Assembly: GCF_009914755.1 (NCBI RefSeq) | Contig: NC_060941.1 | Length of the DNA stretch: 64,000 bases | Source of the DNA: the human T2T-CHM13v2.0 reference genome, Homo sapiens | Reading direction: 5' to 3' (one strand) | Part shown: piece by piece, positions 751 to 63,332 of the stretch | Layout of the letters: every line of letters starts with the position of its first letter | Position numbering within the stretch: position 1 is the stretch's first letter | Notes under the pieces: generated by a model | Database searches by the model: none | Told to the model about the DNA's origin: nothing | Seen by the model: the letters and a program-made list of their open reading frames with translations, nothing else | Program-made: the position numbers and the translations under genes

Positions 751-1695
751 CTGATGCAGCCACAGGTTAGATTTTTCCCTCTTAGTTATTGTGTCCAGAC
801 ATATTGGTAGGATACATTTATTTGAATTAATGAAAGCTGCGATTTAGCTTCAAAAAGGACTCTATCCAAATTCAACTTCCACTGTAGCCCTTCTTGCTAA
901 AGGTGTGCCTTATGGGAGCATCAAGCGTGGGATTTTAAAAATTAACTTTAATAATGTTCAGTTTGGCCAAGCAACTCACATTCAGAATGTTTAGTTTTGA
1001 GCATATGGAGAAAAGAAAGCAACAAAAGGATGGCAAGGGATAAGATGTCCCAGGATTGGAAAAGCCAGAAGGAAGAGATGTTGAAGTGAGATTCAGATGG
1101 AGGATGTGATCAATTCCCATTGTAAATTACCTTGGCATTTCCTTAGGGTTTGTCAGGCAAACCACTAGGTGCTCTGACAACTGCATTCCCCTGAGCATAA
1201 AAAGGTATAAAGTTTTGGAAAAGGAAGAAGCATCATTTTCAACTTGAGCCTGTAATGATGGAAAGCCAGCCAGGGCCTGCAGGCTAAAGATATTTTTTAG
1301 AGTTGTTAGTTTTCAGTGACATTGTCCTTAACAAAAGGTGATACACTTGAGTCTGTGAAGTATTGTACTGCCTGAGTTTGTTTACCTGGGAGCTGTGGAT
1401 ATAGCACTGGAGAGCTTAAAAGTAAATCAGAATTTGCTATTCTCTTGTCGCCAATTTGCCAATGGCTTCCCATTGCCCTTCAGATATAATCTAATTCCTT
1501 TCCTTGTAGGCACCACACGGCTTGTCCTACTCCCCCATCTTCTGCCTCATCTCTTACCAATCCCCAACCTGTCCACTCTGCTTCTTCCTGCTTGAGAAAA
1601 GCTCGCCTTTCTGAGGTTTCTGAAACATGCCATACTTAGGTTTGTCATAGGGCTTTTCTACTGGTAGTAACTCTTTCCAGGATTCTTTCTCCAGA

Positions 1696-1990
1696 TTTTT
1701 CTTTTCTGTTTGAGACAGGGTCTTGCTCTTGCCCAGGCTGGAGTGCAGTGGTGTGATCTGCTCACTGCAACCTCTGCCTCCCTGATTCAAGTGATTCTCC
1801 TGCCTCAGCCTCCCAAGTAGCTGGGATTACAGGCGCACCCCACCACGCCCGGCTAATTTTTGCATTTTTAGTGGAGACGGGGTTTCACCATATTGTCCAG
1901 GCTGGTCTTGAACTCCTGACCTCAGGTGATCTGCCTGCCTCAGCCTCTGACAAGTCTTGGGATTACAGGCATAAGCCACCGTGCCTGGCT
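1696..1990 (-). mobile_element. AluS element
   Basis: Reverse-complement Alu; flanking ctttctcca(g/a)attttt TSD. Confidence 0.93.
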
Positions 1991-11250: not shown

Positions 11251-13249
11251 GGGGCGTTTTGAAGGCTGACAGAGGAATACTTTCTCCTGAGGCAGGATTC
11301 GGCAGGCAGAGCATCACTACTACATGGAACCAGGACTTTAAAGGCTGAAAGAATTCTAGAGATCATGTAGGATTATCATCTGACGTATAAGCCCCCGAAA
11401 CCAAGACTAGACCCTGCATCCAGGGTTGAGATGAATGGTTGTTTTTGTTTATGAAGGAGCGTGGTTTCTTGAGTATCCAAGCTGGTTTTTATTACCAGCT
11501 GGATGGATGTGAAGTCCCACCTGGTTCCAGTGCTGTAAAAGAGGTGTCTAGAAAATGATGATTTTCCTGTGGGCCTTGCACATCAGCTCCTTGGCAGCTT
11601 TAATAGACGATTTTCAGAGAAGTTTTAGCAGTGGCCCCGTCCTGAGATTAGTAGAGTCAGTGTAGACCACAGAGATAACTTTTTCAATACAGTAAGTGAT
11701 GGAGTGGTCTGTGTTAGGAATGACAGCAATAATATCAGGTCCCCAGCTAAGCCACAGAAGCCTACTTAAACCACAATGTACCTTTAAGTCGATTAGTTTA
11801 GGCCCTAACCTCCTAACCACCGTGAGTCAACCTGGGGGACGGGAACGCCATTCCTTTTGGTCTTGTGAATAGGAACAATTCCTGTGCTTTTTCTCCCTCA
11901 CTGGTAAGGGTGACTGTAGCTAATCGGGATTATTGAGTATTAGCCATGTGCTGGGTGCTGTGCTGAATACTCCAATTGCGTTATCTCATTTCATCCTTCT
12001 GTCTCCTGCAGGAGGTAGGCTCTATTGTTATCTCCTTTCAGGCAATTTGCCCAGTGGTAATGTAGCTGGTGAGAAGAACCAAGACGGAATCCAGGTCCAC
12101 CCACCTTTAGATCCTGCACTCTTAACCGCTGGGCAACACTGCTGCCCACCTCTCTCATTGGGCGGGCACAGGTCTCTCTGTGCTCTCTGCTCTAGGCTCA
12201 GGATTCTGGGGAGAGTAGGATGGGGAAGGAGGACAACTTTCCCAGTATAAAGGCCTTCTCACAATTCCACCTCTCTCTTTTTTCTGTCTCCCACTCCCAG
12301 AAGTAGCTTGCCTCCTCCTTTCTGCCGCCACCACCATTTAGTGCCTCCAGCCAGGGCTGCTTTCATTCTTCACAGATGTTGGGACAGGCTATGGCTACTT
12401 AGTCACGTTCCTACCCTCCCGTCCTTAAAGTTAGCACAAGGTCCCTTTCAGTCTTTCTAAGAGTTTTTAATTTGTTTGTTTTTTAAACCTAGACCAGCAG
12501 TGTAAAGAATAGGCATGGATGCCAATGACAGGCCTTTGAGTGGCACCCAGGAATTGTGGTTTTCCTGGGCATCACAGCACGGGATGAGAGTGGAGGTGGT
12601 GAGGAGAGAATTGGGTTAGATGGAGTCTCGGGACGCAGAGTAAGTTCGCCTCCTTCCTCCTTGCTTGGAGAGGGAGGGAGGGGCCTTATCACATGTGCTA
12701 CCTGTGCAGGTAGGTGGACCTGTCCAGTGAGCAGCCAATGGGAAGCAGAGGAGGTTCAGTTCAGTGATGGTGTTTAGCTTCTACTGTGTGTCCTGTGCTG
12801 CTGAGTTCATGGGGTACAAAGATGACTCTTGGAGCCTACCTCTAGTAGAGGATACAGAGGCAGAAAGGGTAATTTCAATTTCAGTAGGGTTAAGATGGAG
12901 GTGAGCACAGGAGAGGCCACTAAGCCCGGTGTTGAGGTGACATTTGAGCTGAGTTTCAATGGACAAGTAAGGGCCTTGTGAGGAGAGATGGAAAGGTTGT
13001 ATCAGCCTGAAGGAATGGCATCAGCAAAACCATGGAAGCGTAAAGTGCAAGCGTGGTGTACTGAGGGGACCTACAAGGAGTGGTACAAGTTGCCAAATGC
13101 CTCCTAAGAGAGTTCCTGACACATGGTAGACTCTTAAATGTCATTTCAATAAATGGAGATGGAGGATAAGGTATAGAGGATGAGATGAGTCCGAAGCTAT
13201 GCATGGGCGTTAGTGGTAATACACACCTGGAATGTATTATGTGGTTACT

Positions 13250-19355: not shown

Positions 19356-19550
19356 GCTGCTGAGAACTAGCCCTAGACCTCTGCGTGAGGGTTCTTCTGC
19401 CGAAGACATCACCAGTGTGTGGAGCCTGCCACACCCACCCGCTGCCAAACCACGGCCTTTACCTGTGTCTTCCGGTGTTTCCCGTGCGACCCATCCTGTG
19501 GGAGTGCCTCGTGGGCTGCCCCAGAGTTCACCCCACACTCAGCAGCACCA
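19356..19550 (+). other. YPEL2: YPEL2 exon 2 5' UTR part
   Basis: Acceptor tcctcttcccttgatgttacag|GCT at 19355/19356; no ATG between acceptor and 19551. Confidence 0.85.

Positions 19551-63332
<43,782 letters not shown>

What the first reader, a model, noticed from the sequence alone, without database searches (positions are those of the whole stretch)
19452..19553. In-frame ACG start in strong Kozak context: hidden Cys-rich 33-aa N-terminal extension of YPEL2
Seen: aaACC-ACG-G at 19452-19454 has A at -3 and G at +4 and lies exactly 99 nt (33 codons) upstream of the annotated ATG with no stop between. The annotated ATG has C at -3 (cacca-ATG-g, suboptimal). An in-frame TGA at 19386-19388 and the lack of any ATG in this exon's UTR mean an extension cannot come from an upstream AUG. 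The extension (M)[32 protein letters not shown] has 4 Cys among hydrophobic residues. Knowledge: ACG is a known near-cognate initiator; the YPEL4 N-terminus has a similar CDP motif; from recall, non-AUG extensions have been proposed for YPEL genes in comparative surveys, so the start itself may be known while its function is not. Inference: a 152-aa proteoform, possibly palmitoylated or membrane-targeted, made alongside the 119-aa form (and an M4 start with A at -3) by leaky scanning.
Basis: partly seen in the sequence, partly recalled or inferred. Interest (0 to 1): 0.8.

Follow-up and report, generated by a model that had tools for sequence, protein, structure and literature searches.

The report
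Known ACG-started long form of YPEL2
The YPEL2 gene really does encode a longer protein that starts at a non-standard ACG codon 33 codons before the usual start, but this was published in 2011 and is already annotated by GENCODE; only the job of the extra cysteine-rich piece is still unknown.

Summary
ACG 19452-19454 has A at -3 and G at +4. 33 open codons lead to ATG 19551, and an in-frame TGA lies at 19386.

The start is real and already known:
- Ivanov et al. 2011 list YPEL1, YPEL2 and YPEL4 among ten genes whose non-AUG extension is conserved in all vertebrates.
- Fedorova et al. 2022 list YPEL2 among non-AUG starts annotated in GENCODE v35: ENST00000672916.1, 33 codons, PhyloCSF +521.8, Ribo-seq support.

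My own checks agree:
- All four human paralogues keep ACG-GCN in frame.
- In 65 vertebrate YPEL1/2 models T1, A2, C5, C9, F10 and C12 are invariant, and conservation collapses upstream of codon -1.
- The published Ribo-seq source data show a start-type peak at the ACG: 16 reads, against 89 and 115 at the two AUGs.

Caveats and additions:
- Footprints in the extension show no frame preference.
- A translated 115-codon upstream ORF from exon 1 overlaps the whole leader.
- I found no peptide evidence.
- Palmitoylation is untested.

Verdict: a rediscovery, of low interest.

The parts
19449..19455 (+). Start context ACC-ACG-G (A at -3, G at +4)
   Evidence: Across orthologue models codon -1 is Thr (ACN) in 60 of 63, Ala in 2 and Ile in 1, so -3 is a purine in 63 of 63. 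Codon +2 is Ala (GCN, G at +4) in 65 of 65.
19452..19454 (+). ACG initiation codon of the long (152-residue) YPEL2 proteoform
   Evidence: ACG-GCN is kept in frame in all 4 human paralogues, and in YPEL4 a TGA lies one codon upstream. Ensembl/UniProt models P0007, P0030 and P0113 begin exactly here. The GENCODE extension is 33 codons. A Ribo-seq peak of 16 reads sits at +4, the same offset as at both AUGs.
19452..19550 (+). 33-codon N-terminal extension
   Evidence: PhyloCSF +521.84 in PMC9789052 Supplementary Data 3. It is the only frame open in all four human paralogues.
19452..19493 (+). Conserved core of the extension (codons 1-14): T/M-A-[FL]-[TA]-C-[VIM]-[FL]-[RQ]-C-F-[PF]-C-[DEQ]-[PRQ]. 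Invariant Cys codons at 19464, 19476 and 19485; Phe at 19479
   Evidence: C5, C9, F10 and C12 are invariant in 65 of 65 YPEL1/YPEL2 models from mammals to sharks. C9 is invariant in all four human paralogues.
19386..19388 (+). In-frame TGA that closes the main frame upstream
   Evidence: The estimated main-frame translation upstream of the ACG is about 0.
19551..19553 (+). Annotated AUG (C at -3)
   Evidence: Ribo-seq peak of 89 reads at +4. Met in 59 of 65 models.
19560..19562 (+). Second in-frame AUG (M4, A at -3)
   Evidence: Ribo-seq peak of 115 reads at +4. Met in 65 of 65 models.
19356..19557 (+). Exon-2 part of a 115-codon upstream ORF in frame +1. It starts at an ATG in exon 1 outside the window and stops at TGA 19555-19557
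   Evidence: the exon-1 end is inferred from the only GTAAGT donor. 83 of 113 Ribo-seq reads upstream of the ACG lie in this frame, and it holds 15 reads at the expected stop position.
19417..19434 (+). Leader hairpin GTGTGG-AGCCTG-CCACAC, ending 17 nt before the ACG. It is non-coding, and its arms are shared with YPEL1
   Evidence: The energy z-scores are not significant and there is no covariation.
11298..11437 (+). Alternative first exon of the GENCODE transcript that carries the non-AUG CDS (ENST00000672916.1)
   Evidence: The transcript letters in the source data were located in the window, with GT at 11438. No Ribo-seq reads in index 37-149 (index 0-36 was not read).

Best explanation
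Window 19452-19550 is the coding sequence of a real, ancient N-terminal extension of YPEL2. It starts at ACG 19452 with initiator Met-tRNA.

How it is made:
- Scanning 43S complexes either pass the exon-1 upstream ATG or come from transcripts that lack it.
- A minority of them, roughly 10-20% by my estimate from published footprints, initiate at the ACG because of its ACC-ACG-G context.
- The rest scan on through an ATG-free stretch to AUG1 (19551, weak context) and AUG2 (19560).
- One mRNA therefore gives a form of about 17 kDa (152 residues) and two short forms.

What is shown: the start, the frame, the conservation and the footprints.

What is inferred:
- The extension acts through its first 14 residues, with invariant Ala2, Cys5, Cys9, Phe10 and Cys12.
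- After Met removal these form a Cys-based N-terminal module.
- My first choice is S-acylation that tethers the long form to membranes (about 0.3).
- Next come a metal site (about 0.2) or replacement of the short form's free N-terminus as a partner-binding determinant (about 0.25).
For: Literature:
- Ivanov 2011 (PMC3105428, passage in section 12) names YPEL1, YPEL2 and YPEL4 as cases where both the extension and the non-AUG start are conserved in all vertebrates.
- Fedorova 2022 (bioRxiv text; PMC9789052 section 8) places YPEL2 in the GENCODE v35-annotated set and calls it clearly supported by Ribo-seq.
- Supplementary Data 3 of that paper gives ENST00000672916.1, PhyloCSF 521.84 and 33 codons.

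Own checks on paralogues:
- All four human paralogues keep ACG-GCN in frame.
- In YPEL4 a TGA sits one codon before it.
- In YPEL3 an ATG sits 7 codons after it.
- Only frame 0 is open in all four.

Own checks on orthologues:
- In 65 models, T1, A2, C5, C9, F10 and C12 are present in 65 of 65.
- The top-residue share at -12..-2 is only 0.19-0.65.
- The upstream stretch is read in three different frames across species, so it is non-coding.

Ribo-seq source data:
- The peak of 16 reads at ACG+4 is the highest point of the extension.
- Estimated main-frame translation is about 0 upstream of the ACG and about 47 reads within the extension.

Family context:
- In YPEL5 the free N-terminus is essential for binding WDR26 (PMC7616709, passages).
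Against: - Footprints in the extension show no triplet preference: 49 of 157 are in frame, against 202 of 258 in the CDS. Most reads there therefore come from something else, chiefly the overlapping upstream ORF. The counts are small and pooled.
- I found no peptide or western evidence. YPEL is absent from the 5 searchable supplements of the N-terminomics paper PMC5749180 (1 file not searchable). It appears only in the annotated-set sheet of PMC9789052 Supplementary Data 3.
- RefSeq does not annotate the start (hub table).
- Orthologue evidence here is at the protein level only, from gene models that happen to read through the leader. I could not see orthologue DNA, so ACG itself was verified only in the four human paralogues.
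- Function: nothing supports palmitoylation beyond the look of the motif.
- Strict invariance of Cys spacing would also fit a metal site.
Confidence: 0.86

Rival explanations
1. The extension is translated, but the peptide is irrelevant. The ACG, together with the upstream ORF, only tunes how many ribosomes reach the AUGs.
For: The leader is busy. A 115-codon upstream ORF is translated across it, and in-frame flux from the ACG is low. Fedorova 2022 argues in its title and abstract that thousands of non-AUG extensions lack selection.
Against: Residue-level invariance holds in 65 of 65 models, with conservative replacements elsewhere (F/L, V/I/M, R/Q, D/E/Q). The motif is kept in paralogues that separated before sharks and mammals did. 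PhyloCSF is positive. YPEL3 makes the homologous piece from an ATG (PMC10804680).
Confidence: 0.05
2. The conservation of 19452-19550 reflects a non-coding RNA element or the overlapping frame +1 upstream ORF, not the main frame.
For: There is nucleotide-level conservation without frame just upstream: hairpin arms shared by YPEL1 and YPEL2. Frame +1 is open and translated in human.
Against: Frames +1 and +2 carry stops in YPEL1, YPEL4 and YPEL3. Frame shifts between species stop at about codon -8, and none occurs inside the extension in 65 models. Folding is not better than shuffles (z -1.21), and no Rfam family matches.
Confidence: 0.03
3. The long form comes from an upstream AUG through alternative splicing or another promoter, not from the ACG.
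For: Many database models of other species start at far-upstream Met residues. An alternative first exon with ATGs exists at 11298-11437.
Against: In human an in-frame TGA at 19386, inside the same exon, blocks any upstream start. The in-frame ATG of the alternative exon meets TAG 19368. YPEL4 has a TGA one codon before its ACG. The upstream parts of those models are unrelated to each other.
Confidence: 0.02
4. Functional rival: the Cys cluster C-x3-C-x2-C binds a metal (Zn or Fe-S), or forms a redox CxxC, rather than being acylated.
For: The spacing of C5, C9 and C12, and F10, are strictly invariant in 65 of 65 models. YPEL4 has C-x2-C-x3-C-x2-C. The Yippee domain itself is a Cys4 zinc fold (PF03226).
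Against: Only three Cys are invariant. The fourth (C16) is present in 36 of 65 models and is absent from teleost YPEL2. YPEL3 keeps only C9. No structure prediction could be run.
Confidence: 0.2

Closest known systems
Conserved non-AUG N-terminal extensions of Ivanov et al. 2011 (NAR; PMC3105428), specifically the YPEL1/YPEL2/YPEL4 cluster
   Same: It is this very case. YPEL2 is named among ten genes with the extension and the non-AUG start conserved in all vertebrates. The GENCODE extension of 33 codons equals ACG 19452 to ATG 19551. YPEL1's 35 codons equal the distance from its second ACG.
   Different: Nothing in the start itself differs. I could not see their Table 1 body or Supplementary Dataset 1, so I did not read the codon they named.
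YPEL3 long isoform (157 residues, 38 extra N-terminal residues)
   Same: Its extra piece aligns with the YPEL2 extension (shared C9 and WAAP). ACG-GCT-CTG is still present 7 codons before its ATG. The isoform is described in PMC10804680 (passage).
   Different: It starts at an ATG, lacks C5 and C12, and its first seven ancestral codons are not needed.
Other functional non-AUG long forms (VANGL2-Long, TRPV6, MYC, PTEN-L, FGF2)
   Same: One mRNA gives long and short proteoforms by initiation at a near-cognate codon in good context. VANGL2 belongs to the same deep-conservation group, and a preprint reports a Golgi-associated long variant (listing and abstract start only).
   Different: For those genes the long protein has been seen and given a role (TRPV6, MYC, PTEN-L and FGF2 are recalled, not checked here). 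For YPEL2 no protein-level evidence or role was found.
YPEL5 N-terminus as WDR26-binding determinant in the CTLH E3 ligase (PMC7616709; PDB 8qbn)
   Same: It has the same Yippee fold (E 2.8e-28). In YPEL5 the free N-terminus after Met removal is essential for partner binding (passages). Changing the N-terminus of a YPEL protein can therefore plausibly switch partners.
   Different: YPEL5 has no such extension, and the alignment starts at residue 52 of the long form. Binding of YPEL2 to WDR26 was not examined.
N-terminal Cys-cluster S-acylation motifs (such as those of GAP-43 and PSD-95; recalled, not checked)
   Same: Several Cys lie among hydrophobic residues and one basic residue within 12 residues of the N-terminus.
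   Different: No acylation data exist. The strictly fixed Cys spacing is more typical of metal sites.

Membership tests
[quoted passage not shown] 2011) | Near-cognate codon in a good Kozak context, in frame with the CDS | tested here: met
   ACC-ACG-G at 19449-19455. A purine at -3 is implied in 63 of 63 models and G at +4 in 65 of 65.
[quoted passage not shown] 2011) | No in-frame AUG can supply the extension (an in-frame stop lies upstream) | tested here: met
   TGA 19386-19388 lies in the same exon. YPEL4 has a TGA one codon before its ACG.
[quoted passage not shown] 2011) | Protein-coding conservation of the extension that ends at the start codon | tested here: met
   Six invariant residues in 65 of 65 models, a collapse of conservation upstream, and three frames used upstream. 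PhyloCSF +521.84 from PMC9789052. This is protein level only, as no orthologue DNA was available.
[quoted passage not shown] 2011) | Ribosome footprints that begin at the near-cognate codon | tested here: inconclusive
   There is a start-type peak of 16 reads at ACG+4, and main-frame signal appears only after it. In-frame reads are only 49 of 157 in the extension, against 202 of 258 in the CDS.
[quoted passage not shown] 2011) | The long protein is detected (mass spectrometry or western) | not testable with these tools
   None was found in the supplements searched. The YPEL2 study PMC10804680 uses an N-terminally tagged 119-residue cDNA.
N-terminal S-acylated (palmitoylated) membrane anchor | Cys close to the N-terminus among hydrophobic or basic residues | tested here: met
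   C5, C9 and C12 lie among F, V and R. This is a resemblance only.
N-terminal S-acylated (palmitoylated) membrane anchor | Thioester-linked acyl chains and membrane association | not testable with these tools
   No paper links YPEL to palmitoylation in its title, and the one abstract hit is an unrelated ALS gene-network study (16 full-text co-occurrences).
Cys4-type zinc knuckle | Four conserved metal ligands | tested here: not met
   Three Cys are invariant. C16 is present in only 36 of 65 models, and there is no invariant His in the extension.

The most novel reading that the evidence does not exclude
The long YPEL1/2/4 proteoforms carry a roughly 14-residue N-terminal switch module (Ala2, C-x3-C-F-x-C) that is S-acylated or metal-loaded. 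This module sends a fraction of these otherwise nucleocytoplasmic proteins to membranes or to different partners. The share of long form would be set by leader elements that nobody appears to have described for this gene: a translated 115-codon upstream ORF ending on the main start, and a hairpin 17 nt before the ACG whose arms are shared by YPEL1 and YPEL2.
Probability: 0.25. Interest if true: 0.55.

Novelty: already known. Interest (0 to 1): 0.2.

Why it matters
The start itself adds nothing new. It has been in print since 2011 and is in GENCODE.

It matters in practice because RefSeq and the functional YPEL2 literature I read still treat the protein as 119 residues and tag it at that N-terminus. 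Any role of the long form is therefore invisible in those experiments.

The extension is older than the split of the four vertebrate paralogues, and its Cys/Phe core has not changed between sharks and humans. A function is therefore very likely, and it is cheap to test.

Tried and rejected
- Alternative in-frame start GTG 19419: poor context, no conservation upstream of codon -1, and about 0 estimated main-frame reads before the ACG.
- A downstream enhancer hairpin after the ACG: the fold of 19400-19560 has z -1.21, and the local stem CACGG/CCGTG is not kept in YPEL1.
- A known RNA family: the only hit has E 0.54 and 13.8 bits against a gathering score of 70.
- Codon-level test among human paralogues: frame 0 gives more identities than the other frames (6, 9 and 7, against 3 to 6), but the numbers are too small to count.
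- ESM Atlas look-alikes of the 33 residues: no usable hit.
- Pfam: nothing on the extension; the Yippee domain starts at residue 54.
- Structure prediction of the 152-residue form: the tool was not accepting jobs, so whether the extension packs on the domain is open.
- Ivanov's supplement: not readable. bioRxiv supplements are closed.
- Signal peptide or mitochondrial presequence: rejected by eye (one Arg, net negative charge, hydrophobic run of 6).

Full report
**1. The observation.**
- The window reads aaACC-ACG-G at 19447-19455. ACG is at 19452-19454, A at -3 (19449) and G at +4 (19455).
- Translation from the ACG runs 33 sense codons to ATG 19551-19553. That ATG has C at -3. A second ATG at 19560-19562 has A at -3.
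- The frame is closed upstream by TGA 19386-19388, and there is no ATG between 19356 and 19550.
- The local sequence is not remarkable by itself. ANNACGG occurs 35 times in the window against 28.5 expected, and a 54-codon open stretch is common. The case therefore rests on outside evidence.

**2. It is already in print and annotated.**
- Two papers in the library hold both "YPEL2" and "non-AUG".
- Ivanov et al. [quoted passage not shown]
- Their Table 1 body is not in the held text and their supplement could not be searched. I therefore did not see which codon they named.
- Fedorova et al. 2022 (bioRxiv text; PMC9789052 section 8) count YPEL2 among the non-AUG proteoforms already annotated in GENCODE v35. 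They say its extension is clearly supported by Ribo-seq.
- Their Supplementary Data 3 has the row "ENST00000672916.1 YPEL2 521.8397 33", followed by "ENST00000672036.1 YPEL1 -756.5811 35".
- The first number recurs as a PhyloCSF score in their Fig. 3g source data. I did not see the header of the last column. However, 33 equals the codon count from ACG 19452 to the ATG, and 35 equals the count from the second of YPEL1's tandem ACGs.
- RefSeq, as given by the hub, starts the CDS at 19551. The extension is therefore "hidden" only there.

**3. Independent check with the human paralogues.** The window's own genome is held. The 72-residue product of 19452-19667 finds exons on chromosomes 22, 16 and 11, and a decayed copy on 9. 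Reading them gives these sequences around the start:

| Gene | Codons around the start |
|---|---|
| YPEL2 | CAA ACC ACG GCC TTT |
| YPEL1 | ACA ACG ACG GCT CTT |
| YPEL4 | TGA AAC ACG GCT CTA |
| YPEL3 | GTC CCC ACG GCT CTG |

- All four keep ACG-GCN in frame with the Yippee domain.
- In YPEL4 a stop sits one codon before the ACG, which pins the start.
- In YPEL3 an ATG follows seven codons later. It gives the 38-residue extension of the known 157-residue isoform (PMC10804680, passage).
- The products align as T-A-[FL]-x-x-x-x-x-C, with T1, A2 and C9 invariant in all four.
- Only frame 0 is open in all four.
The homologue is CFTCDRLCG, inside YPEL4's own upstream extension.

**4. Orthologues.**
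- A search for longer relatives returned 633 hits, of which 120 were listed. Many are vertebrate YPEL1/2 gene models that read through the leader.
- I aligned 23 of them with the window. I then aligned 65 models, leaving out most unnamed entries, evident intron read-throughs and fusions.
- In the 65 models, T1, A2, C5, C9, F10 and C12 are present in 65 of 65. Other positions change conservatively (F/L, T/A, V/I/M, R/Q, D/E/Q).
- Codon -1 is Thr in 60 of 63. Positions -12 to -2 have top-residue shares of only 0.19-0.65.
- Upstream of about codon -8, the same stretch appears in three different reading frames in different species. 3 models have the QCVEPA type, 18 the SVWSLPH type, 15 the VCGAC/LCGQCH type and 28 other types, of 64. 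This means conserved nucleotides that are not coding.
- Three Ensembl/UniProt models (cattle, 152 residues; a finch; an electric eel) begin exactly at this Thr codon.
- A second search shows the same motif in mammalian and bird YPEL4. 3 of 5 bird models have no Met at all between the motif and the domain.
- Limits: this evidence is at the protein level and comes from models selected for reading through. I could not obtain orthologue DNA.

**5. Ribosome profiling, read from the published source data.** The sheet for Supplementary Fig. 8 of PMC9789052 gives per-base counts for the YPEL2 transcript. Transcript index 140 is window 19356.
- Both AUGs show a peak four positions after their A: 89 reads for AUG1 and 115 for AUG2.
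- The ACG shows 16 reads at the same offset. This is the highest point of the extension.
- Upstream of the ACG, 13 of 113 reads are in the main frame. Deconvolution with the CDS periodicity gives about 0 main-frame translation there and about 47 reads' worth within the extension.
- Against the CDS density, this suggests that some 10-20% of the flux starts at the ACG. This is a rough estimate of mine.
- Against the reading: in the extension only 49 of 157 reads are in frame, with 54 and 54 in the other two frames. In CDS positions 365-471, 202 of 258 are in frame.
- The footprints there are therefore mostly not from the extension, and the counts are small and pooled across studies.
- The frame-2 reads (54 of 157) remain unexplained.

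**6. What else is in the leader.**
- The RefSeq gene start lies 2206 bases before the window. I fetched that stretch.
- The only consensus donor (GTAAGT) lies 170 bases downstream of the start. This gives a 365-base leader.
- That exon has one ATG, at base 25, with G at -3.
- With that splice, which I infer and which is not annotated for me, the ATG opens a 115-codon ORF in frame +1. It crosses the whole exon-2 leader, the ACG and the extension. It stops at TGA 19555-19557, on codons 2-3 of the main ORF.
- The phase agrees with the footprints. 83 of 113 reads upstream of the ACG are in that frame. 15 reads sit at the expected stop position, and the frame then falls to 25 of 258.
- Ribosomes that start there cannot use the ACG, so "leaky scanning" must include passing this ATG.
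- Three papers hold both "YPEL2" and "uORF". Two are the non-AUG surveys above. The third looks unrelated by its title and abstract start, and I did not open it.
- A 6-bp hairpin (19417-19434) ends 17 bases before the ACG. Its arms are shared with human YPEL1 while 4 of 6 loop bases differ. Its energy is no better than shuffles (z -0.05 and -0.54) and there is no covariation. It is only a lead.

**7. How it most likely works.**
- Shown: the site, the frame, deep conservation that begins at the ACG, a start-type footprint peak, and co-use of the two AUGs.
- Inferred: initiation with Met-tRNAi, and removal of Met before Ala2 (a general rule, recalled). This would leave an N-terminus that carries three invariant Cys and one invariant Phe within 12 residues.
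- I rank S-acylation with membrane tethering first (about 0.3). The cluster sits at the very N-terminus among hydrophobic residues.
- A metal site is second (about 0.2). The fixed C-x3-C-x2-C spacing fits one, but a fourth ligand is present in only 36 of 65 models.
- A change of partner binding by replacing the short form's free N-terminus is also plausible (about 0.25). In YPEL5 the free N-terminus is essential for binding WDR26 (PMC7616709, passages).
- No paper found links YPEL proteins with palmitoylation. There were 16 full-text co-occurrences. None names both in the title, and the one abstract hit is an unrelated ALS gene-network study.
- The mouse Ypel4 knockout has a red-cell membrane phenotype (PMC8342551, abstract and passages). 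That is only circumstantial.

**8. Verdict.** The core interpretation is right, but it is a rediscovery of a published and annotated feature. The functional guess is untested. Novelty: already known. Interest: low. The practical point is that YPEL2 studies still use the 119-residue form.

Noticed in passing
window 19356-19557 plus exon 1 outside the window (L006 318-463): A 115-codon upstream ORF starts at an exon-1 ATG (mRNA base 25, G at -3) in frame +1. It overlaps the ACG and the whole extension, and stops at TGA 19555-19557 on the main start region. Published Ribo-seq reads upstream of the ACG are 83 of 113 in this frame. The exon-1 end is inferred from the only GTAAGT donor.
   Followed up: partly
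window 19417-19434: The hairpin GTGTGG/CCACAC with a 6-base loop ends 17 bases before the ACG. Human YPEL1 keeps the arms but changes 4 of 6 loop bases. In orthologue models this stretch is read in three frames, so it is a conserved non-coding element. The energy is not better than shuffles and there is no covariation.
   Followed up: partly
window 11298-11437: This is the alternative first exon of the GENCODE transcript that carries the non-AUG CDS, with a GT donor at 11438. It holds three ATGs, each followed by a stop within 5 codons. No Ribo-seq reads in index 37-149 (index 0-36 was not read).
   Followed up: partly
window 19455-19554 (transcript index 239-338): 54 of 157 footprints in the extension fall in frame +2. 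No matching translation continues downstream (31 of 258). This is unexplained.
   Followed up: no
window 19408-19410: ATC lies four positions before the largest leader footprint peak (34 reads, frame +1). It is either a pause inside the upstream ORF or a second start in that frame.
   Followed up: no
L005 (G000 chromosome 9), about 1441-1731, minus strand: A decayed YPEL copy with TGA and TAG inside the Yippee part. It still shows a YPEL1-type extension (…QQSCNSS…PE…) before its MT.SKTF. It looks like a retrocopy that includes the leader.
   Followed up: partly
L003 (YPEL3, chromosome 16) 1501-1752, minus strand: YPEL3 keeps ACG-GCT-CTG seven codons before the ATG of its 157-residue isoform. 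The ancestral ACG start may therefore still be usable there.
   Followed up: no
proteins P0139, P0144, P0169 (bird YPEL4 models): 3 of 5 bird YPEL4 models aligned have no Met between the TAL..LLRCFPC motif and the Yippee domain. The non-AUG start may be their only start near the domain.
   Followed up: no
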